A DNA stretch of 64,000 nt from a virus (taxonomy: Duplodnaviria > Caudoviricetes), in the IMG/VR virus record IMGVR_UViG_3300035703_000078, positions 4,288 through 68,287 of that record. One strand, 5' to 3'. The first letter of the stretch is position 1. Every line of letters begins with the position of its first letter. This document shows positions 270 through 63,727 of the stretch, piece after piece. Below the pieces are notes generated by a model. That model saw only the letters and a list, made by a program, of their open reading frames with translations. It made no database searches and had not been told where the DNA came from. A program made the position numbers and the translations under genes.

Positions 270-566
270 TTACGCCTTATGTTCTTCTGTTCTGCCATAA
301 TTTAAATCCTGAATCTCAACAATCATTCGCTTTGGGATTTTATTAACTTGTGCTGTTTCATCTGGACCTACAGTATTGGTTACTGCAAAATGATCAGCAT
401 CCTCATGTAATATAAAACCTACTGTAACCATGATAGGCAAGGGATCTTTAGCATAATTCAAAGCCTTGTTTCTATCAAGCCAGCCTTCACCACCAATAGT
501 TACTGCATCAATCCAACTAATTAAAACTAACTGAGGGATTGTTGGATATGTAATATTATTAGGCAA
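270..566 (-). CDS. conserved phage hypothetical protein (WxDA...TVGF...IPK type)
   Basis: C-terminal part of ORF 270..704; the likely start is TTG at 566, overlapping the RNAP stop; the pattern LISWIDA..GW..TVGFILHED..IPK resembles a common small phage family. Confidence 0.55.
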   Translation of the reverse strand: MPNNITYPTIPQLVLISWIDAVTIGGEGWLDRNKALNYAKDPLPIMVTVGFILHEDADHFAVTNTVGPDETAQVNKIPKRMIVEIQDLNYGRTEEHKA

Positions 567-2997
567 AGAAATATTTAGATCCGAGTACTTCGGAAACATC
601 GAACTCTCCGTCTGGTTTTGGACAGTCGGGAAGGAAGATTTTGTATTTCTTTTCAATTTCTTCTTTGAGGTTTTCAAGCTGATTCTCCTGATGAATTTTA
701 ACAAACTGTTCTCTTAGTATACTGTGCATCTCATCTACATCTGGTGCATATGTTCCAAAGGAATCATGCACCATTGAGAAAGCACACATACCTTGATTAA
801 GCATTTCTCCAATTGTCATAAACATATGAGCTGCATCTAGCGCATGGATAAAGTTTGGAGAAATCGCCAGATATTGTGCCTTGCCGTCGAGATCTTCCGT
901 AACAGTTGAGAATACCAACTGCTGCCTGTTGAATAGTTCGGCATAGGAAACCCTTTCTAACACTTGATTGTACACATGATGTACTTCAAACCCGCTGGGA
1001 GTTGTCCATACAAATGGTTTATTAATACTATTTAGAATGTCTGCAACAGATCGCAACCATTCCTTACCTTTGTTGGGTGACTCCATAGTTTCTCCCAAGC
1101 CAGCTTGAATAGCTCTGCTTAGTTCTACTACAGCACCACCCCTGGATTCCTTTGGAACCCAATCAACATGGCCTTCTTGCTTTACATACTTCTGCATACC
1201 ATAGAATGTAAGTCCATAAGCATCACACATAGTAGGACGCTTGGCTACAGCCCTTGGTAGTTTATTATCCCAGTTAAGTAAGAATACCTGATACCAATTA
1301 TTTTCTTGGTGTTGCTTCATGTATTCTGTACTGGCATCTGCAACAAACTGATACAAATCTTGAGGAGATTCTGAATCAATTAGGTTTGTAAGTACAGCAA
1401 GTTTCTTATTACGCATAATAGCAGACCAATGTTGACCACCATTATTTGCACCATCCATTTGAATATTGAGCTGTGTCATACCATCAGTACGAGCAAACTC
1501 AAAGATAGCAGCAAGACGTTGGAATGATTTATTCTTTTTCTTTGAGGCATCAATCCATTGCTTGTTTGAATAGGGATCAGATGCTATTGCAATAAGCATT
1601 TCAGCATTATCATCTACCCATTTAACACGATCTTCAAATGGAATCTTATCCTGATCAAATAGGTTTGCTAGGTGTACCTTTAACCAGAACAAGCCACGCG
1701 GTGTCTGCTTGCGTGGTGAAGCAAAGTGAACAAGTCCACGATCAAAGTCTACACCTTGAGGTGATAGCAATTCACATACTGAATAAGCTCTACCTCTAAA
1801 GTCTAGTGTATATGGCATGTAAAAGAAGTTCCAATCTAGCATCTTCTTAGCTAGCTGTAGTCTTACAATCATTCTACTTCTAGCTTGTTCTTCTTTATAC
1901 CATTCACCCCATGCTTCATTAGATTCCTGCATCCACTTAGCTTGCTCTTCCTTTGTCCCTCCCTCCGGGTATGGCCTACTGAATGCATAGTCTTTAAAAG
2001 TAAATGCAGGTAGGTTAGCAAGCTTGTAGTCATTCTCAAACATAGTCTTCATTACATCATAGACTTGTTTGTTTACTGACCACTCAGTATGGCTGAGGGC
2101 ATTTAGACCACGGAGAACTAGTTCACTTGGTCGTGAGTCCCAATCCTTTGGGTTTGCACCAACAGGATGATATCGCTTGATCATCTTCTTACGGATCCAG
2201 GGAGATAAGAAACCACCATCTTCCTTTGCTGTGTGCTGGATAGGTGGACAGATCATTGGTCGATATACCAGACATGCTGCTTCAAGTAACTCATGTCGCT
2301 TGCTTAGTTCCTTGAGAATCCAAGGAGCAAAACAAACAAGCAATGACTTACGATTCTTTCCATTCCAATGTACCCTACTTACTAGGATATCACTGGATAG
2401 AGCAATGCGTAGCATGTTATGTCCTAGGTCTTCCTTTTCCTTAGCCTTTAGCTTTGGAATAGATCCGACCTTCTTAGTAAATGCTTTGCACCGCTTGATT
2501 GTCCAGTTCTTAATGAACTTGGATTGCTTTCTCCAATCTTCTGAGAACTTCTTCTTTGCTTGTTGATAAGATACAATGTTAATAACATCATCTGCAATTA
2601 ACTTAGCTACTTGCTGTGCTACTGGTGCATTACTTGGAATGCCCATTGTATCATCGAAGCTTTGAATTGTATTCCTAGTTAGGAATAAGCGCATTACATT
2701 TCTAATAGTAATGTCTGCCATCTTAGCTGCACCAACACAAAGTAATGGTGCTAACCAATCAGGCGACTTACGGTTATTAGAACATGTGTCAATCCACTTT
2801 TGATAGAAAGGTGTAAGATGAATAACTGCGCTTTCAAGTAGTAATTGCTCAGGCTTTCCTTCATCGACAGCACGGTTATATTCCTTCCAGTATTTTTCAA
2901 TACCATTATCTAGCAGATCTTCTTCAAATAACTTTTGATTAGTTACTCTAAATTCTTTTTGTTCTGGTGTTAGTTGATTCCAGGTAGTTAGTTTCAC
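559..2997 (-). CDS. T7-like single-subunit DNA-directed RNA polymerase (canonical, 812 aa)
   Basis: DFRGRAY, motif A MDGANNGGQH, motif B RAVAKRPTMCDAYG, WTTPSG, PNFIHALDA, motif C VHDSFGT, C-terminal YFFA. Confidence 0.98.
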   Translation of the reverse strand: MKLTTWNQLTPEQKEFRVTNQKLFEEDLLDNGIEKYWKEYNRAVDEGKPEQLLLESAVIHLTPFYQKWIDTCSNNRKSPDWLAPLLCVGAAKMADITIRNVMRLFLTRNTIQSFDDTMGIPSNAPVAQQVAKLIADDVINIVSYQQAKKKFSEDWRKQSKFIKNWTIKRCKAFTKKVGSIPKLKAKEKEDLGHNMLRIALSSDILVSRVHWNGKNRKSLLVCFAPWILKELSKRHELLEAACLVYRPMICPPIQHTAKEDGGFLSPWIRKKMIKRYHPVGANPKDWDSRPSELVLRGLNALSHTEWSVNKQVYDVMKTMFENDYKLANLPAFTFKDYAFSRPYPEGGTKEEQAKWMQESNEAWGEWYKEEQARSRMIVRLQLAKKMLDWNFFYMPYTLDFRGRAYSVCELLSPQGVDFDRGLVHFASPRKQTPRGLFWLKVHLANLFDQDKIPFEDRVKWVDDNAEMLIAIASDPYSNKQWIDASKKKNKSFQRLAAIFEFARTDGMTQLNIQMDGANNGGQHWSAIMRNKKLAVLTNLIDSESPQDLYQFVADASTEYMKQHQENNWYQVFLLNWDNKLPRAVAKRPTMCDAYGLTFYGMQKYVKQEGHVDWVPKESRGGAVVELSRAIQAGLGETMESPNKGKEWLRSVADILNSINKPFVWTTPSGFEVHHVYNQVLERVSYAELFNRQQLVFSTVTEDLDGKAQYLAISPNFIHALDAAHMFMTIGEMLNQGMCAFSMVHDSFGTYAPDVDEMHSILREQFVKIHQENQLENLKEEIEKKYKIFLPDCPKPDGEFDVSEVLGSKYFFA

Positions 2998-7330: not shown

Positions 7331-7408
7331 CTCCTAGGTATACCTAGGTAATATTAATACTATAGTAATAATAATACCTAGGTTTAACCCCTAGCTATAT
7401 ACTAGGTT
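7331..7408. promoter_or_regulatory. AT-rich palindrome cluster (possible promoter or origin)
   Basis: CCTAGGTATACCTAGG perfect palindrome, TATTAATA, TACTATAGTA and further CCTAGG/CTAG sites, between a terminator and the middle operon. Confidence 0.4.
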
Positions 7409-7443
7409 AAAAGGGGTAGCCTAGGGATTAACCTAGGCTACCC
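7409..7443 (-). terminator. intrinsic terminator (CCTAGG family)
   Basis: GGGTAGCCTAGG-6 nt-CCTAGGCTACCC 12-bp stem, then CTTTT on the minus strand. Confidence 0.8.
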
Positions 7444-7450
7444 AGTTCAT

Positions 7451-7717
7451 TCAGAACGGAAGAGGAACATTTTCCACAATGTTCACAGTCACACCCTCAA
7501 CGAGGGGCGGGCGATCCAGCTTGGGGCTGGGGCGGCTGATCTTGCCCTTCAGGGCAGGAGCCTTGGGATGGGCAGCATTTTCGTTTGCCCAAACAGAAAC
7601 GGGAACCTTAACGGTTTCCTGACCAATCGTGATGGTCACATAACCGTTAAACTTGGGGGCCTGGGGGTTGGTGGTATTCACCACCCACAGGTCAACTCGA
7701 CACTGATTCACTGTCAT
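7451..7717 (-). CDS. putative ssDNA-binding protein (DUF736-like)
   Basis: Likely start ATG 7717 (GAGG SD); duplicated NPQAPKFNG / HPKAPALKG motif, VSVW, C-terminal PF. Confidence 0.5.
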   Translation of the reverse strand: MTVNQCRVDLWVVNTTNPQAPKFNGYVTITIGQETVKVPVSVWANENAAHPKAPALKGKISRPSPKLDRPPLVEGVTVNIVENVPLPF

Positions 7718-7808
7718 TGTCACTATCCTCAAAAGTTTCTTCGGGAGCCATACCATATTCAGACATCAGCTGCTCCCATTCGCTGACATCATTCCAATTA
7801 TCAGGCAT
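7692..7808 (-). CDS. very acidic 38-aa peptide
   Basis: AGGAGG SD; MPDNWNDVSEWEQLMSEYGMAPEETFEDSDNDSESVSS. Confidence 0.55.
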   Translation of the reverse strand: MPDNWNDVSEWEQLMSEYGMAPEETFEDSDNDSESVSS

Positions 7809-7821
7809 TTGTGCCTCCTGA

Positions 7822-8390
7822 GAAAGACAGTCTACAGGTTTCCCCATAGACTGCCTAGTAACCCTATTAGCTTGCTCTAGGCCAGGGTGGGTTAGGTCCT
7901 TAGCCTAGGTTATTACTACCCCTTATTTACTTTATATCGGGGTCAGCCTACTATAGTAGGGTAACAGTTTGAACAAGCGGTCAGGACTGTTCACTTTACC
8001 TGACGTAGCCTACCCAGCTTTGTGGGACTGTTAGTAAACCAAGACGCTACAGTTTGTTGCGCAACAAAACCGTAGCCGCACTATGCCTAATTTCTATTTA
8101 TACTCGCATAGTCGAGTAATCTAATATATGCCTTAGTATAAACCTTAGATTAGCGGGTTTATACTTATGATCCTGTCTAGTTGGATCCCAGGCGTATTAC
8201 CACAGGGTAGACAACTCCCAGGGCGTTTACTGGATAGGTTGCGGCCTACCCAGTATCCTATTGCGGTCTACCGTCTACCGTCTGCAACGGCTCCGCCAAT
8301 GAGTTTGTGAGTAGTTTCTAGTCATGCTCAGGACTACGAGTCGGGCAACCCGCATGCTGTCCTCTAGGACTATCCGGTTGCTTGCCCCGT
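7822..8390 (-). ncRNA. putative structured ncRNA or array of pseudoknots
   Basis: About 570 nt without an ORF of 60 aa or more; at least four complementary loop-tail pairs forming H-type pseudoknots plus hairpins; ends in a terminator-like hairpin. Confidence 0.55.
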
Positions 8391-8394
8391 TGTG

Positions 8395-8727
8395 TCATCG
8401 GTGTTGGCCGTAGTAGGCCTGTTCCTCCTGGCGGTAACACCTACACAGCTGATCAAGTTCTTCTACCCGCTTTTCGAGCTTCCTGATCTTTTCTGTAATC
8501 CCCACTGAACTGATGGGGAACTGCTTGACCTTTAGATACTGCTTGGAGGATCTAAAGGTCATCCCAAGGTCGTTGTTGTGGTCAATGACCACCTGCTCTC
8601 CGGGCTCAAAATACCGGTCGAACACAAACAACTTAAGTAGTTCCTCTCCCGAGAGTCCCTTTTCAACTACCAAGTACGGTCTAAGGGGAGCATCAGAATA
8701 CTCCCCAATTTCGATTAGAACTAACAT
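8395..8727 (-). CDS. hypothetical protein with C-terminal coiled coil
   Basis: AAGGGG SD; 110-aa ORF. Confidence 0.7.
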   Translation of the reverse strand: MLVLIEIGEYSDAPLRPYLVVEKGLSGEELLKLFVFDRYFEPGEQVVIDHNNDLGMTFRSSKQYLKVKQFPISSVGITEKIRKLEKRVEELDQLCRCYRQEEQAYYGQHR

Positions 8728-8742
8728 TTTATTCCCCTTTGA

Positions 8743-8922
8743 TCAGTGCGGATACCCAAACTTGCGAAGACAAGTGAGAACCAACGCCATGATTACTGGC
8801 ATTGCCACCAAGCAAGTGGGAATGACAAGAAACGGTTCGTTTGTCACAGCAAGGGTGACAAGAAGGAACCCCGTCAAGAATGCCGATAAGTACGCTATCG
8901 GCCAGCACACCTGGTACTTCAT
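8743..8922 (-). CDS. small two-TM membrane protein, 59 aa
   Basis: GAGG SD; MKYQVCWPIAYLSAFLTGFLLVTLAVTNEPFLVIPTCLVAMPVIMALVLTCLRKFGYPH. Confidence 0.6.
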   Translation of the reverse strand: MKYQVCWPIAYLSAFLTGFLLVTLAVTNEPFLVIPTCLVAMPVIMALVLTCLRKFGYPH

Positions 8923-8944
8923 TTTTGACCTCTCTTTGGAAAGA

Positions 8945-9190
8945 AATGAGGTTTTAACTAGGTTATCCTCTACCTAGGCCAATAATCCAAACCGTAAGTA
9001 CTTGCCTGTGACATAGGCTTTCCGTAGCTGTATTCCCTGCAAGGCAATACAGCGGTTATTATGTGTGTCCCCCTATTTATATACCGCCTAGGGGAGGTTG
9101 CTTGCGGTTCTATGGTGGTTGCAGCCACCGTTATACCCCGTTTGGGGTATTAGAAATCGCCACCCGTAGGTTTCCCCAGGGGTGGGAGGA
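8945..9190 (-). ncRNA. second structured non-coding block (hairpins plus two pseudoknots)
   Basis: Stem/loop-tail complementarity at 8948-8977 and 9068-9108; hairpins at 9027-9053, 9113-9129 and 9133-9150. Confidence 0.4.
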
Positions 9191-9197
9191 TCTGGAT

Positions 9198-9464
9198 TTA
9201 CTGTCCCAGTTCAGCCAGTTGGTTCTGGATTACCGTCGCCTTGGCCACAGCTGCGGAGATTGTGGCCTCCGTAGCCTTGGGATTCAAGATGACTCCTCCA
9301 ACCAAGCCGTTGAGCTTGAGCTTGAGCCTGTCCTGTTCCGACAGGGCCTCGCGCCGGGCTTGGCGAGCTTCCGCCTTGGCGAAGTGCTCGCTCACGTTGG
9401 TGGTGATTCCGAGGGAAGCCAGAGCTTCCTGTCGGCTCTTCAACTCTGCATCAGACAAAGGCAT
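9198..9464 (-). CDS. hypothetical helical protein, 88 aa
   Basis: AAGGAGG SD before ATG 9464 (MPLSDAELK); first gene after the N4-like hairpin. Confidence 0.75.
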   Translation of the reverse strand: MPLSDAELKSRQEALASLGITTNVSEHFAKAEARQARREALSEQDRLKLKLNGLVGGVILNPKATEATISAAVAKATVIQNQLAELGQ

Positions 9465-9549
9465 GAATGCCTCCTTGTATTGGGGATGGTTAGGGGTATG
9501 CAACAAGCACAACCAAAGCCAACCCCGACAATGAAAACTTCCGTTTTCA

Positions 9550-9569
9550 CCCACGACACACGAAGTGTG
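9550..9569 (-). promoter_or_regulatory. N4 vRNAP-type hairpin promoter candidate
   Basis: Template (+) strand reads CC-ACGA-CACAC-GAA-GTGTG: CC, 4-nt spacer, 5-bp stem, C(GAA)G triloop. Confidence 0.5.
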
Positions 9570-9594
9570 GCGCGAGCTTTAGGGTATTCGTGGG

Positions 9595-9860
9595 AAAAAA
9601 GCAGGTACACCCAGGTTCATGGGTAAATTTCGGTAAATCCCATTAGAAGCCAGGTAGATTTGGGGCTACCGCAGGGCCTTTTAGGTATTCCGTGGCTTCC
9701 TAGGGCATCCTAGGCCCCTTAGCGTAGGCCCAGGTACTCAGGCTACCCACCATCTAGGTACAAACCGTAGGCCCCCTACTGTAGAACTAGTTAACATCTA
9801 GGTACTACTTGGGGTACTGGTAGGTACGGATGGGTAGGTACAGGTTACCAGGGGGTAATA
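9595..9860. repeat. non-coding tract of short AGGTAC/TAGG repeats
   Basis: Multiple (C/T)AGGTA(C) and TAGGCCC units, strand-skewed, no ORF. Confidence 0.5.
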
Positions 9861-9866
9861 ATAACC

Positions 9867-9900
9867 AAATAGAAAACCCCCCAGGTATTACCTAGGGGGT
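9867..9900 (-). terminator. intrinsic terminator (CCTAGG family)
   Basis: CCCCCCAGGT-ATT-ACCTAGGGGG stem; TTTTCTATTT follows on the minus strand. Confidence 0.75.
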
Positions 9901-9915
9901 AGGGAGAACGGAACA

Positions 9916-10440
9916 TCAGACCAGAACAGTGAATTCTGGCATGCGATGACCGTTCTTGGAGGGAACGATGCGGTGAGCCGGGTACTCCAGTTCCACGGCA
10001 CGCTTGTTCCATGCCGCTGACCAGTAGGCTTCTGCTTCTGCGGGAGTCTGACCCCATTCTCGCAGGCAGGCAGTCAGGTTCCGTTCCCGGCACGGAGCCA
10101 GAAAGAACCTCGACCGAAGCACCAACCTGCCTTCGGCCATCCAGGGAGGAGTGGACCCGCTAGGGTCACGGCTGATGGTAACCCCATTGCTGAGGTACAC
10201 CCAACCGTCCAGATCCGCTCCGTAGCGGGTCTGCATCTCCTGGTGGATCTTGACACCGAACCCCATCTGGATAATGTCCAGGTGGGTGAACTTCGTGCGG
10301 TGTCCACGCACGTCCACGCGCCAGCTGGTGGAGTTGGTCCACACCCGATAGGCGTGTTCCCCCGTGCTGAAGAACATGGGGGCGGAACCCTTGGTAGGGA
10401 CGAACTCGACTGAGCCAAGCACAAACTGTGAAGTTGTCAT
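9916..10440 (-). CDS. hypothetical early protein, 174 aa
   Basis: GGAG SD before ATG 10440 (MTTSQF); GC-rich codon usage. Confidence 0.75.
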   Translation of the reverse strand: MTTSQFVLGSVEFVPTKGSAPMFFSTGEHAYRVWTNSTSWRVDVRGHRTKFTHLDIIQMGFGVKIHQEMQTRYGADLDGWVYLSNGVTISRDPSGSTPPWMAEGRLVLRSRFFLAPCRERNLTACLREWGQTPAEAEAYWSAAWNKRAVELEYPAHRIVPSKNGHRMPEFTVLV

Positions 10441-10497
10441 ATGACATCTCCATATACTAGGTTTAAGGTTATTGGGATACAAACCTAGATAAACTTT

Positions 10498-10536
10498 CCC
10501 ATAAGAAATCCCCCCTAGGGATTACCTAGGGGGGAA
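10498..10536 (-). terminator. intrinsic terminator (CCTAGG family) after the mini-RNAP gene
   Basis: TCCCCCCTAGG-GATTA-CCTAGGGGGGA stem, then TTTCTTATGGG. Confidence 0.8.
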
Positions 10537-10549
10537 GTTGCGGGTAGTA

Positions 10550-12427
10550 TCAGCGGAAGATGTTCTTGGCAGCAGAAACAAACTGCTCTTCCGTCACGTC
10601 CTCAGTGATGTTGGGGAACAACTTTCCCAACTCTTCCTGAAGGACCTGACGGTAGTTGCCAACACACTCGCGGTACATATGACGAGTGTACACTTCCTGC
10701 ACCGTCCTCAAGGCTGGACCAATGCGAACAGTGATCGCATCGTGCCGCGTGGTCGCCACCTGTCCATCCATCTCGTTGATGGTGTTAGTCAGGACATTGC
10801 CATCCTGACAAGTGGTAACTGCAACCAAGGACCCGTTCGGGGTATCAACCCGATTGGGTTCTCCGCTGTCTGACCACGGCACAACAGGCCCGTTGTCATC
10901 AGTGAAGCCCTTGGTGAACGGAGCCATACGCGGCTGGAAGCGCGTAGGCCATCCGTTCTTCTTGCACAGATCCAGCACCGAATGAGGCAGGGACACGGAG
11001 ATCTGAGGCAGATCCCGCATCTTGGTAGCCTCATCAACCGGGAACCATGAGAGCGCGGGTGCGATCTTGAAGTGAGGGAACGTAATCCCACCGTAGGTGT
11101 ATGAGAACACCTCCTCCTTCGCCTTCTGGTGAGCCAACCACAGGTCACCAAACTTGAACAGCTTGCTGTCGTAGCGAAGGGCCGCGTTCACCGACATGGC
11201 AGAAACAGATGCTGCCAGTTCCTTGATCTTGGACTGGGGCCAGTCCTTGATCAGCTCCAGACCAGAGCGGAGCTTGTCAACCTTGATCACAGCATTTGCA
11301 AGGTTGAACGGAGCGAGGACAGAACCATCCTCGTCCTCCAGCTCTCCGCCCATCCCGTAGAGGAACACCTGGCCCAACACACGCCCGGTGTAGTTCGTCA
11401 CGGTAAGGACATTCTTAGCCCACTCGCGTGAACGAACAAACGACTCAACCTCTGACGGCACGATGCCAAGGCACTCCGTAATGCCTTCGTAGACCTTCCG
11501 ACCCATCATAACATCCCGACAGGTGCGGCTCCCACCGATGGCCAAGGAGGTAGCCACCGGACCCTGTGCATGGGCATCATATCCAATATGCCCATGAGAC
11601 ACGCCGGAAGCAACAGCGTCACTGATGTGGTAGCAGTTTTGGATGAACCGCAGCACGTTACGCTTCTTGCTTCCAACTGACTTCAGCTTGCCGATTGGGT
11701 TGGAAAACAAACCCAGAGCAAACTCGCGGTCAGTTGCCACGCGGAACATCTCTTCCCGCGTGACACCGTACTCCTTCTCGACCAGGGTAGACCACAGCTC
11801 AATGTCTTCCTTGGTGACAGGGTTGCCTTCTGCTAGCTGATAGAGAGCGCACACATCTCCATCGTACATCGTGGGCAGAACCAGACCGTCGCGGTTGTAC
11901 GCATAGAAGCGACCGCCACGACGATCTGACGAGTGCCAGAACTTGATCTCGCTTCCCGAAGGAAGCTTGGCCAGGTTCTCGATCTGCCACTTGGCAAGGT
12001 ACTCCATCAGGAACACAGGTTCAATCACGGTGTTTGAACGACCGTTGTGAACCACCTCATAGGGCTTCTTGCCCAGCAGACAGGCAGCATCAATGGCCAG
12101 GTTGAACATGCGCTCATCGCGCACCCAGGTAACCTTGTCCATTGCGGCCATGCCACTTGCGTGGCTAGACCAGCTGCGACACTCAGGCATGAGCTTCAGG
12201 ATGTCCTCAGCCTGCCGCCGAAGCGTCCAAGCCTTGAACACCTGAGATCCACCGCGAACAACCTCGCAGTGCATCTTGTAAGCTCCCGTTGACAGCATCT
12301 TACCAATGATGCCGCCAACAACTGAGAACGATGCCGGGTCGATCCCCGCAAGGACCGCATCCGGCTGAATGAGTGTCACCAGGTCGTGAACAGTGTACTC
12401 ACCCTTACCCAAGAATGGAATGTTCAT
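10550..12427 (-). CDS. divergent, N-terminally truncated T7-family RNA polymerase (625 aa)
   Basis: D168-RRGGRFY, motif A GYD284AHAQG, motif B R334EWAK338NVLTVTNY346, TTCQDGNVL, motif C RH562D563AIT, all in T7 order; GAGG SD. Confidence 0.85.
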   Translation of the reverse strand: MNIPFLGKGEYTVHDLVTLIQPDAVLAGIDPASFSVVGGIIGKMLSTGAYKMHCEVVRGGSQVFKAWTLRRQAEDILKLMPECRSWSSHASGMAAMDKVTWVRDERMFNLAIDAACLLGKKPYEVVHNGRSNTVIEPVFLMEYLAKWQIENLAKLPSGSEIKFWHSSDRRGGRFYAYNRDGLVLPTMYDGDVCALYQLAEGNPVTKEDIELWSTLVEKEYGVTREEMFRVATDREFALGLFSNPIGKLKSVGSKKRNVLRFIQNCYHISDAVASGVSHGHIGYDAHAQGPVATSLAIGGSRTCRDVMMGRKVYEGITECLGIVPSEVESFVRSREWAKNVLTVTNYTGRVLGQVFLYGMGGELEDEDGSVLAPFNLANAVIKVDKLRSGLELIKDWPQSKIKELAASVSAMSVNAALRYDSKLFKFGDLWLAHQKAKEEVFSYTYGGITFPHFKIAPALSWFPVDEATKMRDLPQISVSLPHSVLDLCKKNGWPTRFQPRMAPFTKGFTDDNGPVVPWSDSGEPNRVDTPNGSLVAVTTCQDGNVLTNTINEMDGQVATTRHDAITVRIGPALRTVQEVYTRHMYRECVGNYRQVLQEELGKLFPNITEDVTEEQFVSAAKNIFR

Positions 12428-12481
12428 TGGGTGGTTTCCTCTCTATAAGAAGGAGTTAGGGCTTGACTTATATAGCTCTAG

Positions 12482-12515
12482 CCATGAGCTTGCCCAACAG
12501 TTGGGCTTGGGTTAC
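12482..12515 (-). promoter_or_regulatory. hairpin promoter-like element upstream of the mini-RNAP gene
   Basis: CCATGAGCTT-GCCCAA-CAG-TTGGGC-TTGGGTTA aligns without gaps to 13020-13052. Confidence 0.45.
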
Positions 12516-12520
12516 ATTTA

Positions 12521-12560
12521 ACCCATAAAGAAATCCCCCTAGGTTTTATCCTAGGGGGAA
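12521..12560 (-). terminator. 40-bp terminator repeat, copy 1
   Basis: ACCCATAAAGAAATCCCCCTAGGTTTTATCCTAGGGGGAA, identical to 13269-13308. Confidence 0.85.
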
Positions 12561-12579
12561 AGAGGAGGATTCAATCGCC

Positions 12580-12993
12580 TTAAATCTCGTTAAAGATTCG
12601 GCGATAATTGCCAGTACCTCCGCCGGTGTCGTAGAGCGTAACGCTCCAAACCTCTTCGTAGGTTGGGGCACGCTGACCCAGGTAGTCGCAAATCAAGGAA
12701 TTTCCGTTAACCGACCTAAACTCAAATCGCGACATTGTGCCACGCTTGTAGTAAAGGACATTGTGAAGCCAGTCAACAGAGTTCTCTTGATTGTAGGACT
12801 CAAGAAGAGCGGGAACTTCTTCCGTCAAGGGACCTTCCACGCCAGGACGCGGGAAAACTTCGCGTCCGCCAAATGAGGAAAAGGAGACAGGACACAAACA
12901 TTCTGTTCCCTTAGTGTCCCAAATCTGGTCGGTAAATGCATGCCCAATAGCACACACCGCCTCCCAGCGAACAAGCTTGGTGCTGATCTTCAT
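12580..12993 (-). CDS. hypothetical early protein
   Basis: AGAAAGGT SD lies within the upstream 50-bp repeat. Confidence 0.75.
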   Translation of the reverse strand: MKISTKLVRWEAVCAIGHAFTDQIWDTKGTECLCPVSFSSFGGREVFPRPGVEGPLTEEVPALLESYNQENSVDWLHNVLYYKRGTMSRFEFRSVNGNSLICDYLGQRAPTYEEVWSVTLYDTGGGTGNYRRIFNEI

Positions 12994-12999
12994 ACCACT

Positions 13000-13057
13000 A
13001 ACCTTTCTGGTCCATAGGACCTAGAGTTCACTGAGCCCCAGTGATAGGGTTAGGTAG
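13000..13057 (-). repeat. 50-bp promoter/RBS repeat, copy 2
   Basis: 13000-13049 identical to 13568-13617; contains hairpins GGTCC-ATA-GGACC and TCACTG-AGCCC-CAGTGA plus the SD. Confidence 0.9.
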
Positions 13058-13065
13058 TAAGTCTA

Positions 13066-13101
13066 CCCATAAAAAAATCCCCCAGGGATTAACCTGGGGG
13101 A
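13066..13101 (-). terminator. intrinsic terminator (CCTAGG-family variant)
   Basis: TCCCCCAGG-GATTAA-CCTGGGGGA stem, then a T7 run and ATGGG on the minus strand. Confidence 0.8.
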
Positions 13102-13106
13102 CTTGG

Positions 13107-13244
13107 TCACCACGGGTTGCCAATGATGGCCAGGGGCTGATGCTCTTTAATGAGCTTAGCCTTTGCTGCATCTTGGCTATTCGCCGTGATGGTCACAGTA
13201 ACTTCGTTACCGTGACGATCCACAATCCTGAAGTTATACTTCAT
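13107..13244 (-). CDS. small early protein, 45 aa
   Basis: AAAGGAG SD; MKYNFRIVDRHGNEVTVTITANSQDAAKAKLIKEHQPLAIIGNPW. Confidence 0.7.
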   Translation of the reverse strand: MKYNFRIVDRHGNEVTVTITANSQDAAKAKLIKEHQPLAIIGNPW

Positions 13245-13268
13245 GTGGAATCTCCTTTCTGGGTATAT

Positions 13269-13308
13269 ACCCATAAAGAAATCCCCCTAGGTTTTATCCT
13301 AGGGGGAA
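13269..13308 (-). terminator. 40-bp terminator repeat, copy 2
   Basis: Identical to 12521-12560. Confidence 0.85.
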
Positions 13309-13321
13309 TGTGGTTCAGTAC

Positions 13322-13561
13322 TCAGCTGTTGTTCTTAACAACTGTCAGAGTGACTGAAAGGTCATCCTCGCTACGCCACGCATAAGCAACAAGGACGCCG
13401 TCACCAAGCTCATTGCACTCCCACAGCTCCCAGTTGCGATCCGAACAGGTGTATGCTGCGTTAAACAGCCACTGAAGAGCTTCGTACCAGTTCTTTGTCT
13501 TGAGCGGGCGGTATTCCCACTCCTGTCCGTGGATGTAAGTGAATCGAGTTTGATTTGCCAC
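13322..13561 (-). CDS. hypothetical early protein (probable first gene)
   Basis: GTG start with AGAAAGGT SD in repeat copy 1. Confidence 0.7.
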   Translation of the reverse strand: MANQTRFTYIHGQEWEYRPLKTKNWYEALQWLFNAAYTCSDRNWELWECNELGDGVLVAYAWRSEDDLSVTLTVVKNNS

Positions 13562-13567
13562 AGTACA

Positions 13568-13625
13568 AACCTTTCTGGTCCATAGGACCTAGAGTTCACT
13601 GAGCCCCAGTGATAGGGATAGGTAG
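13568..13625 (-). repeat. 50-bp promoter/RBS repeat, copy 1
   Basis: Identical to 13000-13049, plus shared TAGGTAG. Confidence 0.9.
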
Positions 13626-13639
13626 GGAATCTACCTGGG

Positions 13640-13675
13640 AAAAAAACAACCAGAGAATTATTAGTTCTCTGGTTG
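13640..13675 (-). terminator. intrinsic terminator between late and early regions
   Basis: CAACCAGAGAA...TTCTCTGGTTG stem followed by a T run on the minus strand. Confidence 0.8.
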
Positions 13676-13764
13676 CTTTGTTTGATTGGGGGGGGGATAG
13701 AGGGGGATATCCACCCTCTAATTCCTTACATAACCCCTCAGAAATTTCTGACCCCTAAGTCGAT

Positions 13765-16700
13765 TTACTTCAGTGAGTCTGGAGCTTTAATTGGTGTTGT
13801 TGCTTCTTTTTGTAGAGATGAACTTGTGCTTGGCTTAGGTCCAACCATGACTTCGCTGGTAGAGGTTGTTTCTACTGGCTTCTCTGGTACTGGAGTTTCT
13901 GGAGCTGTTAGACCTAGGTTTGGCATTTGTTTCTTTTTAAACTGATGCATGTATTGCTGAAGTTTATTATTCATTTCAGTTTGATACAATGACTTAAGTA
14001 TAGCCTGTGCTATATTGTTTGGCGTAGGTAGTTGCATGTTTTCGTATTCAGCATAAGCTGTAGCAAATGCTGTATTCATTGGTCTACCTTCGCTATTGCG
14101 TCTTCCAGAATCAAAGGAACCCATTGTTTGTTTCTTTGCTTCTGTAGCTAGGCCCTGATTAATTAAAGTTTTAAACCAAGCTTGATTTAGAATTGGTAGT
14201 AAATATAATCCACCATTGTAAGCTGACTTAATTCTTTCTTCATCTGACTGTGCATTGATAAAGGTATTGGTATTGGTTGCTAGGTTCTTTAGTAATCGTA
14301 CCATAGCAGTAACACCTAGCGGTGCAATCTCTGGTTCTAATCCCTTGTTACCAGCAACTGTATCTGCCAAGAACAAGGAAGTATCCAACAAGAAGTTGCC
14401 CTGTAAAGTAAACATGGGGTTTCTTACTGCTGCTTTAGCAATAAGTTTAATTGTCTTTTCAGATGGTTCACCCCTTAGTAATCTTTCAATTTCGTCCCCA
14501 GCAAGGAACCCGCTGGCTGCTGCAAGCATAGTTTGATACATGATATCGGTAATGGTGTATACCAACATGAGTCCAGCCATCTTTGATGTAGACATTCTGG
14601 CACTGTTTCGTAGTAACATCTGACCAGCAAATAGAATTGAATATGATCTATACAAGCTTAAGAACTTGCTTAATGGGGAGTCATCTGTTACACCATCAAA
14701 AGCTGAAGAAGATATTAATGACTGTTTAACTGCCAAGTCTTGGAACTTTTCAATAGCTCCTACAGCTTGTATTAGCATTTGTTTATTTACGGTAACACCA
14801 TCTACATTAACGCTAAAGTCTTTATCAAGATCTAGGATTTTGTCCATATACTGAGAAATACTAATTGGTCCTGATTGCTTTAAGAACTTAAGGCTTTCGA
14901 TAACCCCAACCTCAAACATACCAGCAGCTTTCATTCGTAGGATTGTTTCAGGTGAAGATAGCTTTCTAAAACCGTTGTTCTTTAGCTTCTTCATCAGAGT
15001 TACATATCCTCTATAGTTACCAGATTCCAATTCACCATCAATAAGCATACGTCTTACTTCTTCTAGGTTGTTAGTATTTAGTTGTCTATTGAGTTGTACT
15101 AATGCAGTTTTAGCCAAAGCTGTTCTTGCAGAGATAGATGTTGACATATTTAGTGCTTGGTTAAAGCTTAAGAATCTACTAGCCAGTCTTCCGGTTTTTC
15201 TAGTAAAGTCTACTTCACCATATAACTTTTCCCATGACTCAACAAAGTTACTGTTAGTATCCCAGAGTATTTCTGCAAAGTCGGCAAAGTCACCACGAAC
15301 CTGGGTTTGTTTCCATCCATCACTAAATGCACCAAAGCTTAATCTAAGTACATCTCCAATGTATCTGCCATAGAAACCAAGTACACCACCAGCACCGCCC
15401 AGCATCATAGCACCAACAGCTGCTGCTGAAGAGTCTACAAGAATACCAGCGGCAATCTGGTTACCACCCCAGATTAGGTGGGCAGCTTGTGTTGTAAACT
15501 TAATTGCATTCTTACCAATGGCATCACCAGATACGGCAGAACGCATGTTCCACATATACTGATACTTGTGCTCCAATACTGTTAAGGCATCACTAAGTAA
15601 CTTGACTTCTGCTTGTGATAGGGGTTTAGCTCTTACGCCTTGTTCGGTTCTTTCAAACTGACCCTGTGATATATGAGATCCAGTTGGTCTATTGGCTCCA
15701 TCAACATATGCCTTTAGAATCCTAATTAGTTTAAGAACATCATACCCCTGTACCCCAGTCATCTTGTAAATCAATGAACTTGATACAGCTTGCTGACCTA
15801 GGCCAGATCCAATTGATTTAATAATAGATCTTATGTCTCTGGAGAAGCCACTACGGATAGATCTCATTTCTTCTACGCCTAGTACTTCAGTAAAGTTATC
15901 ACCAAAGATATCATCTACTGTTAGGTTAATGTCATCCTTATAAGTAATAGCAGCAGAAGAACCAATAGTATTTAAGAAGTCTATTGCTAGTAGTTCTGGA
16001 ATTGTATTTGTAGATGCACTAAAGATATTTCTTTCTTCTTTGATCTTAATTGGGAATCTCTCAGAACGCATAGCTTGAAGCTTTGCTTTCATATTAGGTG
16101 GATTGCCAATATCAGAAGTAATGGTATTCTTTATTGCATTCTGGATTATCTTTACCTGTTCTGGGGTAATACCGGAAGAATGGGCTGTAAGCAATCCAGT
16201 TACAGTAGCTGTTCTACTGGTGCTTGCTTCTAGTAAAGCCTTGTAGCCTTTCTTTAAATCTTTCAATGCAACCGAGTTTCCAACAGTTGCACCCGATCTA
16301 ATCAGATCCTTTTTAGTTGCTAGATCAACAGATCCTTCTTTAACTTGAGCAGCATAAGAAAGAATAGAGTTAAATATAATAGCCTCTACTGAATTTGGAT
16401 TAGTAGATCCACTTGCGTTTCTTTCAATAAAACTAATAAACTCTTGTTCTGAAGACATGTCTGATGAGTTAGATGTCTTAAGTGTTGGTAACCCGGAAGT
16501 CAACATAAATGTAACCGGATGTACTCTATCAAGATCTTGTAACTGTGAAAGTTGTTTTGCTCTGATTAAAGAAGATACAGATTGAATAAACTGCGTTCTT
16601 CTTGTTTGATAACCAGCTTTATTCTTTTCTTCTCTAAACTGATCAATATCTAACTTAAATGCAAGGTAGCTATCATGGAATGGTCTTGATCTATCTTTTA

Positions 16701-63495: not shown

Positions 63496-63568
63496 TGCCC
63501 CCTGTAGGATTTGAACCTACGACCGATTGATTAAAAGTCAACTGCTCTACCAGCTGAGCTAAGAGGGC
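63496..63568 (-). tRNA. tRNA-Lys(UUU)
   Basis: Full cloverleaf; anticodon loop CTTTTAA; CCA not encoded. Confidence 0.93.
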
Positions 63569-63570
63569 GA

Positions 63571-63652
63571 TGACTCCGGGGGGAATCGAACCCCCACGCC
63601 TTGCGGCGGCAGATTTTAAGTCTACTGCGTATGCCAGTTTCGCCACGGAGCC
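63571..63652 (-). tRNA. tRNA-Leu(UAA)
   Basis: Cloverleaf with long variable arm; anticodon loop CTTAAAA. Confidence 0.93.
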
Positions 63653-63653
63653 G

Positions 63654-63727
63654 CATCCCCAGCTGGACTTGAACCAGCAACCTACAGCTTAGAAGGCTGT
63701 TGCTCTATCCAGTTGAGCTATGGGGAT
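63654..63727 (-). tRNA. tRNA-Arg(UCU)
   Basis: Cloverleaf; anticodon loop CTTCTAA. Confidence 0.93.

What the first reader, a model, noticed from the sequence alone, without database searches (positions are those of the whole stretch)
10550..12427. Minimal, highly divergent T7-family RNAP lacking the N-terminal domain
Collinear matches to T7 RNAP: AAMDKVTWVRD (thumb start), IKFWHSSDRRGGRFY (DWRGRVY), LYQLAEGNPV, GYDAHAQG (motif A), REWAKNVLTVTNY (motif B), TTCQDGNVL, TRHDAIT (motif C). D168 to D284 is 116 aa, the same as T7 D421 to D537. Only about 90 aa precede the thumb, so the promoter-binding N-terminal domain is mostly missing. This resembles N4 RNAPII but as a single chain. It may need ssDNA/hairpin templates or a cofactor, or act as a primase or DNA-translocation motor (inference). 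Potentially useful as a compact polymerase.
Basis: partly seen in the sequence, partly recalled or inferred. Interest (0 to 1): 0.85.

Follow-up and report, generated by a model that had tools for sequence, protein, structure and literature searches.

The report
Hidden second RNA polymerase in phage
A freshwater T7-like phage that already has a normal T7-type RNA polymerase also carries a much shorter, very diverged second polymerase of the same fold in its GC-rich early-gene region, which points to an unrecognised extra step in how such phages take over transcription.

Summary
Pfam, PHROGs and PDB sequence searches find nothing. Three other lines place it in the T7 single-subunit RNA polymerase fold:
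- A 20-sequence family profile aligns to a T7-like RNAP profile (hhalign 95.6%, E 1.2e-8).
- ESM features point to viral PF00940 clusters.

The catalytic residues D284, K338, Y346 and D563 are kept in every homologue that covers them, and dN/dS is 0.10-0.22. About 255 N-terminal residues and part of the thumb are missing.

Beyond the finding:
- The phage also has a canonical 812-aa RNAP at 559-2997.
- The short gene sits in a GC-rich island and uses none of the three codons read by the phage's own tRNAs (0/35 AAA, 0/52 TTA, 0/35 AGA), so it is probably an immediate-early gene.
- It diverges far faster than the canonical RNAP.

Its template, promoter and any cofactor are unknown. I class it as a new variant of a known kind.

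The parts
10550..12427 (-). Gene for the 625-aa (69.6 kDa, pI 6.6) diverged single-subunit RNA polymerase ('mini-RNAP')
11903..11926 (-). Residues 168-175, DRRGGRFY: the T/DxxGR motif with a one-residue insertion
   Evidence: Pairs with T7 D421/R423/R425/Y427. D168 kept in 17 of 18 (one E), R170 and R173 in 18 of 18, Y175 in 17 of 18.
11561..11584 (-). Residues 282-289, GYDAHAQG: motif A with catalytic D284 and G289
   Evidence: D284-D537 and G289-G542. Both kept in 18 of 18 sequences that cover them.
11387..11428 (-). Residues 334-347: motif B / O-helix (R334-x3-K338-x7-Y346-T347)
   Evidence: Y346-Y639. The profile against N4 RNAPII aligns the R, K and Y without gaps. K338, Y346 and T347 kept in 20 of 20; R334 in only 12 of 19. 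The model has a helix at 334-346.
10916..11056 (-). Residues 458-504: the most conserved block of the family. It lies where T7 has its specificity loop and is about 15-20 residues longer.
   Evidence: Invariant F462, P463, R471, S477, P481, R496, Q498, P499, A502 and F504 in 20 of 20. W461-W727 and R496-R756 pair in the global hhalign only. The alignment in this stretch is uncertain.
10730..10750 (-). Residues 560-566, TRHDAIT: motif C with catalytic D563
   Evidence: H562-H811 and D563-D812. R561, H562 and D563 kept in 20 of 20. In the model D563 sits between strands 557-561 and 564-568.
12428..12533 (-). Leader upstream of the gene, with a GAGAGG ribosome-binding site and a TTGGGC-17 nt-TATATA element whose spacer is a hairpin
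   Evidence: Sequence. The element is kept in the 63%-identical relatives L001 and L008, with a paired change in the spacer stem (AGCTC/GAGCT becomes AGCCT/AGGCT). It does not pass the sigma-70 scan rules.
12534..12559 (-). Terminator-like hairpin (CCCCCTAGG-loop-CCTAGGGGG followed by a T-rich tail) just upstream of the leader
   Evidence: It is one of 5 such hairpins in the island. In other samples, contigs join different sequence at this point.
10509..10535 (-). Terminator-like hairpin just after the stop codon
   Evidence: The same CCCCTAGG...CCTAGGGG hairpin follows the gene in L001, L008, L004, L002, L003, L012 and L005, but not in L009 or L011.
9916..10440 (-). orf174: a conserved gene of unknown family directly downstream (candidate partner, not shown)
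   Evidence: Correct frame and homologues found (94% in L005, 51-53% in L001/L007/L008, 24% in L004 and L011). All lie directly downstream of the polymerase gene. Alignment A6. No Pfam, PHROG or PDB match. No homologue detected in the L002/L003/L009/L012 clade.
7400..13800 (.). GC-rich island (48-62% GC against 34-40% elsewhere) that holds the gene
   Evidence: The homologous genes in relatives are also GC-rich (51-56% against 33-39% in the flanks).
13647..13675 (-). Strong terminator-like hairpin followed by T7, between the 4035-aa gene and the island
   Evidence: Read on the minus strand. The scan listed the site on the + strand.
559..2997 (-). The phage's canonical 812-aa T7-type RNA polymerase (context)
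   Evidence: phrog_414, E 8e-159. PF00940, 277 bits.
63496..63727 (-). Phage tRNA genes Lys(TTT), Leu(TAA) and Arg(TCT) (context for the codon argument)
   Evidence: The same three tRNAs occur in the relative G002.

Best explanation
The gene encodes a catalytically competent DNA-dependent RNA polymerase of the T7 single-subunit fold. It belongs to a small, very diverged subfamily that has lost roughly the first 255 residues of the T7 architecture and part of the thumb. By recalled T7 structure, the lost N-terminal part holds the promoter-binding elements.

It is a second phage polymerase, made in addition to the canonical 812-aa enzyme. It is most likely made first, in three inferred steps:
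1. The gene lies in a separately terminated, GC-rich early island.
2. Its codons need only host tRNAs.
3. It is therefore translated before the phage's own tRNAs and AT-rich middle and late genes come into play.

Once made, it would transcribe a subset of phage DNA. The next gene class is the likeliest target, which would also help draw the genome in. Because it lacks the N-terminal melting and recognition elements, it probably depends on a cofactor or on a pre-opened or structured template, as N4 RNAPII does.

Shown: the fold, the conserved catalytic residues, purifying selection, coexistence with the canonical RNAP, and the codon contrast. Inferred: RNA rather than DNA synthesis, early timing, the target genes, and the need for a cofactor.
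For: Fold:
- hhalign of A2 against T7-like A3: 95.6%, E 1.2e-8, 477 columns; 96.8% in global mode.
- The AF2 model reaches pLDDT 88.1 and pTM 0.85 with the 20-row alignment.
- Foldseek against the PDB gives 73 matches at E<=0.001. All rows listed (ranks 1-50) are mitochondrial or T7 RNAPs, best E 3.2e-10.
- The top BFVD hits are phage RNAPs.
- The nearest ESM Atlas clusters are viral PF00940 clusters, score 0.95.

Active site: D284 18/18, G289 18/18, K338 20/20, Y346 20/20, H562 and D563 20/20, R170 and R173 18/18. The penultimate F624 pairs with T7 F882. From recalled knowledge, G289 sits where PolA enzymes have the steric-gate Glu and T7 has G542.

The gene is functional: dN/dS is 0.10-0.22 in 8 of 9 informative pairs.

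It is a second polymerase:
- The canonical RNAP is at 559-2997.
- Both genes occur together in G001, G002 and G003. The canonical RNAP was found in 3 of the 4 related records searched.

Early class:
- Codon use is 0/35 AAA, 0/52 TTA and 0/35 AGA, with GC3 0.68. The canonical RNAP has GC3 0.33 and the 4035-aa gene 0.24, with 31-65% use of those three codons.
- The phage tRNAs read exactly AAA, TTA and AGA.
- In 5 of 7 family members examined all three of these codons are absent; L011 lacks AAA and TTA but has 3/43 AGA, and both members of the L002/L003 clade use all three at low levels.
- A strong hairpin followed by T7 separates the island from the upstream late genes.

Small contigs matching the gene occur in two metatranscriptome runs from two studies. 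This is a weak hint only.
Against: - No sequence-level method recognises it. Pfam gives 0 families at E<=1. PF00940 is silent at E<=10. PHROG hits are all at E>=0.26. PDB sequence hits are at E>=0.13. Identity to T7 RNAP in structural alignments is only 11-14%.
- Two T7 nucleotide-handling residues are not kept. The R627 position is Arg in only 12 of 19 sequences. The H784 position is Thr or Ser in all 20.
- hhalign leaves K631 unpaired. K338 is assigned by ungapped register from Y346 and from the N4 RNAPII alignment.
- No activity, template or promoter is known. I found no repeated promoter-like motif outside the island.
- Timing rests on codon usage and position only. The physical genome ends are unknown, because the 112-nt end overlap only shows a closed assembly.
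- The island follows the late genes on the same strand.
- The TTGGGC-17-TATATA element fails the sigma-70 scan rules.
- RNA-library contigs may derive from DNA.
Confidence: 0.7

Rival explanations
1. It is an active RNA polymerase, but its job is not general transcription. It primes phage DNA replication or acts mainly as a motor that pulls the genome into the cell. This is what T7 RNAP does at its origin and during entry, and what mitochondrial RNAP does as a primase.
For: The fold and catalytic residues are the same as in the main reading. The position in the island fits an entry role if this end enters first. The truncated thumb (hhalign gap opposite about T7 378-400) would favour short products. 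These roles of T7 and mitochondrial RNAPs are recalled knowledge, not from a call.
Against: The phage has its own primase-helicase (61761-63476, phrog_239, E 8e-158) and DNA polymerase. It also has a canonical RNAP that could do both jobs. Nothing in the calls marks an origin next to the gene.
Confidence: 0.12
2. It is cargo of a mobile early-region cassette. It serves competition between phages or against host defences (for example transcription that is insensitive to an inhibitor) and is not a fixed step of the phage's programme.
For: - It diverges far more than the core genes: 63%, 34% and 32% identity where the canonical RNAP is 90%, 83% and 83%.
- Neighbouring island genes are shuffled. 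orf55 is 96% identical in L004, whose polymerase is only 32% identical.
- Hairpins bound each gene.
- Contigs from other samples join different sequence at these hairpins.
Against: The gene is present at the same place in every related record that covers the region. It is under purifying selection. It is the only island gene shared between G000 and G002, apart from a 101-aa ORF at the island's edge. That pattern looks like a conserved core function with fast-evolving specificity.
Confidence: 0.1
3. It is a polymerase of the same fold that makes DNA or adds nucleotides without a template, rather than an RNA polymerase.
Against: - Gly at motif A +5 and Tyr at the Y639 position are kept.
- hhalign to the phage's own DNA polymerase gives 0.13%.
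- There is no exonuclease domain.
- A separate DNA polymerase is encoded.
Confidence: 0.04
4. It is a catalytically dead relic kept for a structural or regulatory role.
For: Extreme divergence, with two T7 substrate-contact positions changed.
Against: Both metal-binding Asp residues, the motif B Lys and Tyr, the T/DxxGR arginines and the C-terminal Phe are kept across homologues only 31-36% identical to the window's protein. dN/dS is 0.10-0.22.
Confidence: 0.04

Closest known systems
T7-like phage single-subunit RNA polymerases (T7 gene 1 protein; Pfam PF00940)
   Different: - Identity is 11-14%, and there is no PF00940 or PHROG hit.
- About 255 N-terminal residues are absent. By recalled structure these hold the AT-rich recognition loop and the intercalating hairpin.
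- About 23 thumb residues are deleted.
- The R627 and H784 positions are not kept.
- The specificity-loop region is longer and is the most conserved block of the family rather than the most variable.
- It coexists with a canonical enzyme in the same genome.
N4 RNAPII (gp15 + gp16), the middle-gene polymerase of phage N4
   Same: - It is a second, small phage polymerase of the T7 family: 673 aa in all, against 625 here.
- It has a truncated N-terminal domain and a truncated thumb.
- It is encoded among early genes.
- N4 RNAPII binds only ssDNA and needs gp1 and gp2 (PMC4496689, passages read). That is the model for the cofactor idea here.
   Different: - N4 RNAPII is a heterodimer split between T/DxxGR and motif A. 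This protein is one chain.
- N4 gp16 is found by plain tblastn to match T7-like RNAPs. This family is not.
- The profile against gp16-like proteins gives 7.6%, over motifs A-B only.
- There is no gp1 or gp2 homologue in this genome (tblastn E>=0.08).
Short single-chain phage RNAPs such as phiEcoM-GJ1 (Chaseviridae, 648 aa) and Vibrio phage phiV141 (673 aa)
   Same: Similar length and a similar structural match to the model (Foldseek E 1.3e-9 and 3.1e-10, TM 0.50-0.51 normalised by query length). They show that RNAPs of about 600-670 aa of this fold are already annotated.
   Different: Those proteins are annotated as RNA polymerases in UniProt. In Chaseviridae they are described as the phage's T7-like RNAP (abstracts seen in the listing). 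I did not fetch or align them, so their N-terminal limits relative to T7 were not compared.
Mitochondrial RNA polymerases (POLRMT, Rpo41)
   Same: Best Foldseek E-values (3.2e-10). They depend on separate factors for promoter melting (table quoted in PMC4496689).
   Different: They are much larger (about 1200 aa), with N-terminal extensions. They are eukaryotic, and only the C-terminal polymerase domain aligns (for example model 68-625 against POLRMT 642-1230).

Membership tests
T7-like single-subunit RNAP (PF00940) | Match to the Pfam RNA_pol model at its gathering score | tested here: not met
   0 Pfam families at E<=1 for the protein. A six-frame PF00940 search of the whole genome at E<=10 hits only the 812-aa RNAP.
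T7-like single-subunit RNAP (PF00940) | Palm-fingers-thumb fold superposable on T7 RNAP | tested here: met
T7-like single-subunit RNAP (PF00940) | T/DxxGR motif | tested here: met
   D168-R-R170-G-G-R173-F-Y175 pairs with T7 D421/R423/R425/Y427, with one inserted residue. Kept in 17-18 of 18 sequences.
T7-like single-subunit RNAP (PF00940) | Motif A and motif C catalytic aspartates | tested here: met
   D284-D537 and D563-D812. Kept in 18/18 and 20/20.
T7-like single-subunit RNAP (PF00940) | Motif B R-x3-K-x7-Y-G on the O-helix | tested here: inconclusive
   K338 and Y346 are kept in 20/20, and the model has a helix at 334-346. Arg is at the R627 position in only 12/19, Thr replaces G640, and hhalign leaves K631 unpaired. 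The N4 RNAPII profile aligns R, K and Y without gaps.
T7-like single-subunit RNAP (PF00940) | His at the T7 H784 position (role in ribose contact is recalled) | tested here: not met
   Thr or Ser in 20/20.
T7-like single-subunit RNAP (PF00940) | N-terminal promoter-binding domain (AT-rich loop and intercalating hairpin; positions recalled) | tested here: not met
   The alignments start at T7 257 or 264. Only about 90 residues precede the thumb. Neither flanking ORF resembles the missing part. One VIA row reaches T7 195 (1cez_A), so a remnant hairpin cannot be excluded.
T7-like single-subunit RNAP (PF00940) | Specificity loop that reads the promoter | tested here: inconclusive
   Residues 458-530 occupy the place and are highly conserved. 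The local and global alignments disagree there, and no residue-level superposition was available.
T7-like single-subunit RNAP (PF00940) | DNA-dependent RNA synthesis | not testable with these tools
   Needs a biochemical assay.
N4 RNAPII | Heterodimer of two gene products split between T/DxxGR and motif A | tested here: not met
   One uninterrupted 625-aa ORF here and in all full-length homologues.
N4 RNAPII | Truncated N-terminal domain and truncated thumb (PMC4496689) | tested here: met
   The alignment starts at T7 257. There is a gap of about 23 residues opposite T7 378-400.
N4 RNAPII | Sequence relatedness to gp15/gp16 | tested here: inconclusive
   A2 against the gp16-like profile A4: 7.6%, E 0.0046, 85 columns over motifs A-B. 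Single gp15 and gp16 sequences give only motif-sized matches.
N4 RNAPII | Cofactors gp1 and gp2 encoded by the phage | tested here: not met
   tblastn of N4 gp1 and gp2 against the whole genome gives best E 0.08 and 0.76. This was a sequence search only, so distant analogues are not excluded.
N4 RNAPII | Coexistence with a virion-packaged giant RNAP | tested here: inconclusive
   A 4035-aa protein with 1 Cys lies next to the island. No polymerase similarity was detected in it. No fold was predicted for it.
Family A DNA polymerase | Closer structural or profile match to PolA than to RNAPs, with a steric-gate Glu in motif A | tested here: not met

The most novel reading that the evidence does not exclude
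The protein founds a new subfamily of T7-fold RNA polymerases that is self-sufficient at about 70 kDa. Promoter recognition and opening have moved from the lost N-terminal domain to the enlarged, invariant block at residues 458-504, which reads structured (hairpin-type) early promoters. The enzyme forms the first tier of a phage-encoded polymerase cascade (mini-RNAP, then canonical RNAP) in an otherwise T7-like phage. This would make the phage independent of host RNA polymerase almost from entry. The fast divergence of the gene would then reflect co-evolution of polymerase and promoter alleles exchanged as cassettes.
Probability: 0.15. Interest if true: 0.85.

Novelty: new variant of a known kind. 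Interest (0 to 1): 0.68.

Why it matters
T7-like phages are the textbook case of 'host RNA polymerase first, then one phage polymerase'. A second polymerase of the same fold, probably made earlier, would add a tier to that scheme in a widespread freshwater lineage. It would give a natural experiment in how little of the T7 architecture is needed.

The family cannot be found with Pfam or PHROG models. Similar polymerases are therefore probably missed in phage annotation, and the 20-sequence alignment here can seed a new model.

A 70-kDa single-chain polymerase with its own, probably orthogonal, specificity could be useful for in-vitro transcription and synthetic circuits. That holds only if it proves active without a cofactor.

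The codon contrast also gives a simple, testable marker for temporal class in phages that carry tRNAs. Early genes avoid exactly the codons that the phage's own tRNAs read.

Tried and rejected
- **Sequence-level identification failed.** Pfam, PHROGs, PDB by single sequence and by profile, and tblastn against 50,697 phage records all gave nothing. The word-index protein search gave only 2 close relatives. Genome contigs gave 0 of 104 candidates.
- **Single-sequence AlphaFold** gave an unusable model (pLDDT 34.6). Only the model built on the alignment was used.
- **Missing N-terminal domain as a separate subunit.** Neither orf137 nor orf174 resembles T7 residues 1-260. orf137 is not conserved.
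- **orf174 as a binding partner.** Complex prediction (A2 + A6) returned no answer (score 0.00, mark 0.32, partner fold uncertain). It says nothing either way.
- **Polymerase module in the 4035-aa protein** (earlier notes e1-6247195 and e1-6247196). There is no Pfam or PHROG hit. hhalign against T7-like RNAPs gave 1.1-1.6%, against N4 mini-vRNAP 0.3%, and against A2 0.2%. The PDB profile search and ESM Atlas gave nothing.
- **Repeated phage promoters.** The 19-nt leader core occurs only twice. The TTGGGC leader motif is not enriched (17 matches against 14.4 expected). A 9-mer count over 21 intergenic stretches found only the hairpins.
- **A sigma-70 promoter for the gene** does not pass the scan rules.
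- **Reads.** All runs were contigs, so no starts, ends or strands could be read. Parts of the stretch without cover in X19 and X20 mean nothing.
- **Literature.** Searches found no paper describing two T7-type RNAPs in a T7-like phage. This is weak evidence of absence. PMC11880802 had no passage on truncated or multiple ssRNAPs.
- **My own error.** In some searches the ORF downstream of the polymerase was read from 10441 instead of 10440, which is the wrong frame. Those rows for 'orf188/orf175' are void and were replaced.
Full report
**What is there**

The window is most of a 68,287-bp phage genome, a single contig that the source classes as complete with terminal repeats. Its two ends share 112 nt. 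Nearly all genes lie on the minus strand. The gene set is T7-like:
- primase-helicase, DNA polymerase, exonuclease and ribonucleotide reductase;
- portal, scaffold and capsid;
- tail tube A and B and a tail fibre;
- large terminase and ThyX;
- an 812-aa RNA polymerase at 559-2997 (phrog_414, E 8e-159; PF00940, 277 bits).

The closest cultured phages share under 31% identity in the RNA polymerase and portal.

The finding's ORF, 10550-12427 on the minus strand, encodes 625 aa, 69.6 kDa.

**Checking the observation**

All seven quoted strings are present, in order. On its own the sequence matches nothing. Pfam gives 0 families at E<=1. PHROG hits are all at E>=0.26. The single PDB hit has E 0.13 and is to an unrelated enzyme.

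The family is small:
- 9 proteins at E<=0.001 among 1.84 billion representatives. Six are full-length (624-657 aa) and three are fragments.
- 2 clusters in the word-index search.
- 4 loci in viral contigs, out of 29 candidate stretches.
- 10 loci in metagenome contigs, out of 121 candidates.
- None in 185,579 prokaryote genomes, out of 104 candidates.

I aligned 20 of these sequences (A2).

**What it is**

Three largely independent lines agree.

1. *Profile.* A2 against a profile of 10 diverse T7-like RNAPs (A3) gives 95.6%, E 1.2e-8, over 477 columns. My own hhalign runs give 85.9% in local mode and 96.8% in global mode.
2. *Structure.* With A2 as input, AlphaFold gives pLDDT 88.1 and pTM 0.85. 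The single sequence gave 34.6.
   - Foldseek against the PDB returns 73 matches at E<=0.001. Every listed row among ranks 1-50 is a mitochondrial or T7 RNA polymerase.
   - Against predicted viral structures, the top hits are phage RNAPs.
3. *Language-model features.* The nearest ESM Atlas clusters are viral clusters carrying PF00940, score 0.95.

The landmark residues are collinear and conserved:

| Residue(s) here | T7 partner | Kept in family |
|---|---|---|
| D168 / R170 / R173 / Y175 | D421 / R423 / R425 / Y427 | 17-18 of 18 |
| D284 and G289 | D537 and G542 | 18 of 18 |
| Y313 | Y571 | not counted |
| K338 and Y346 (spacing 8, as T7 K631-Y639) | K631, Y639 | 20 of 20 |
| D542 | D787 | 19 of 20 (one E) |
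| H562 and D563 | H811, D812 | 20 of 20 |
| F624 | F882 | not counted |

dN/dS is 0.10-0.22 in eight of nine informative pairs. The ninth pair differs at only 10 sites. So this is a maintained, probably active polymerase.

**What is missing or changed**
- The alignments start at T7 257-264. About 255 N-terminal residues are therefore absent. By recalled T7 structure, these hold the AT-rich recognition loop and the intercalating hairpin.
- About 23 thumb residues are deleted.
- The R627 position is Arg in 12 of 19 sequences, and the H784 position is Thr or Ser in all 20.
- The block at 458-504 lies where T7 has its specificity loop. It is the most conserved part of the family, with ten invariant residues. 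Its alignment to T7 is unstable.
- Neither neighbouring ORF resembles the missing domain.

**Context**

The gene sits in a GC-rich island at about 7400-13800, with 48-62% GC against 34-40% elsewhere. The homologous genes in relatives are GC-rich in the same way. This is a long-standing property, not a recent import.

The codon contrast is sharp:
- The phage encodes tRNA-Lys(TTT), tRNA-Leu(TAA) and tRNA-Arg(TCT), as does the relative G002.
- The mini-RNAP gene uses 0 of 35 AAA, 0 of 52 TTA and 0 of 35 AGA, with GC3 0.68.
- The canonical RNAP has GC3 0.33, with 20 of 70 Lys codons as AAA.
- In the 4035-aa gene, 31-65% of the corresponding codons are these three, with GC3 0.24.
- In 5 of 7 family members examined all three codons are absent. 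L011 lacks AAA and TTA but uses 3 of 43 AGA. The two members of the L002/L003 clade use all three at low levels.

On the minus strand, a long hairpin followed by seven T separates the island from the 4035-aa gene. Five terminator-like hairpins with a shared CCCCTAGG...CCTAGGGG core bound the island's genes.

I infer that the island is an immediate-early unit translated with host tRNAs only. The mini-RNAP would then be made before the canonical enzyme.

**Evolution**

Between this genome and three relatives, the canonical RNAP is 90%, 83% and 83% identical. The mini-RNAP is 63%, 34% and 32% identical. Other island genes are shuffled: orf55 is 96% identical in a genome whose mini-RNAP is only 32% identical. 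In other samples, contigs join different sequence exactly at the hairpins. Apart from a 101-aa ORF at the edge, the mini-RNAP is the only island gene shared between G000 and G002.

A 174-aa gene of unknown family (9916-10440) follows the polymerase gene directly in five lineages. No homologue of it turned up in the L002/L003/L009/L012 clade.

**How it most likely works**

It is an early, second RNA polymerase with a complete active site but without the T7 elements that bind and open a promoter. The closest functional precedent is N4 RNAPII. That enzyme is small, has the same two truncations, binds only single-stranded DNA and needs gp1 and gp2 (PMC4496689, passages read).

This protein is not a member of that group. 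It is one chain. It is far more diverged from T7 than gp16 is. The genome has no gp1 or gp2 homologue.

Other single-chain phage RNAPs of about 600-670 aa are already annotated. The size alone is therefore not new.

**Expression**

Two metatranscriptome runs from two studies hold small contigs 95-99% alike to the gene. DNA carry-over cannot be excluded, so this is a weak hint.

The stretch, or large parts of it, occurs in runs labelled freshwater, lake water or wastewater. Twenty rows from 17 studies hold it, one of which may be the source sample.

**Verdict**

The finding is a new, Pfam-invisible subfamily of the T7 polymerase fold. It serves as a second polymerase in a T7-like phage and is probably made earliest. 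Function beyond the fold is inferred. My searches of the literature found no description of such an arrangement.

Noticed in passing
window 13765-25872 (-): The 4035-aa ORF next to the island has a single cysteine (residue 4). It has no Pfam or PHROG match, a DIET-type exonuclease-like motif and an HExxH motif in its translation. Relatives have 4027-4183-aa homologues at 22-98% identity, and residues 960-2249 are the best conserved. A Cys-poor giant protein recalls N4 vRNAP (passage in PMC3821669), but I found no polymerase similarity.
   Followed up: partly
window 9876-9900, 10509-10535, 12534-12559, 13075-13104, 13282-13307 (-): Five terminator-like hairpins share a CCCCTAGG-loop-CCTAGGGG core and a TTTCTTTATGGGT-like tail, one after each island gene. 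The core is kept in relatives whose polymerase is only 32-35% identical. Contigs from other samples switch sequence at these points. They look like boundaries for cassette exchange as well as terminators.
   Followed up: partly
window 12997-13088 and 13565-13656: A 92-nt repeat (86% identical) forms the leaders of orf137 and orf79. It contains an identical 19-nt core with a small hairpin (CACTG-GGGCT-CAGTG). Only two copies occur in the window. It could be a promoter or an RNA element.
   Followed up: partly
L002, L003, L012, L009 upstream of the polymerase gene: The other clade has a different structured leader with two hairpins. The second shows a paired change between lineages (CTACTA/TAGTAG against CTACCA/TGGTAG).
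   Followed up: no
window 7800-9900: About 2 kb of the island has no convincing conserved ORF. ORFs there overlap on both strands, and only orf118 (9198-9554) and orf101 (7451-7756) have homologues in relatives. It may hold non-coding RNAs, as earlier notes suggest. I did not test this.
   Followed up: no
whole genome (codon table): Use of AAA, TTA and AGA rises in steps. It is 0% in island genes, 0-35% in the RNAP, primase-helicase and DNA polymerase, and 31-81% in the 918-, 1452- and 4035-aa genes. The major capsid gene uses no AAA. This gradient may mark temporal classes.
   Followed up: partly
window 25884-32995 (-): The 918-aa and 1452-aa proteins upstream of the giant gene have no PHROG match (Pfam was not run on them) and almost no detectable similarity to the corresponding genes of G002, whereas neighbouring genes are 55-90% identical. 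The whole block from the 258-aa gene to the island is hypervariable.
   Followed up: no
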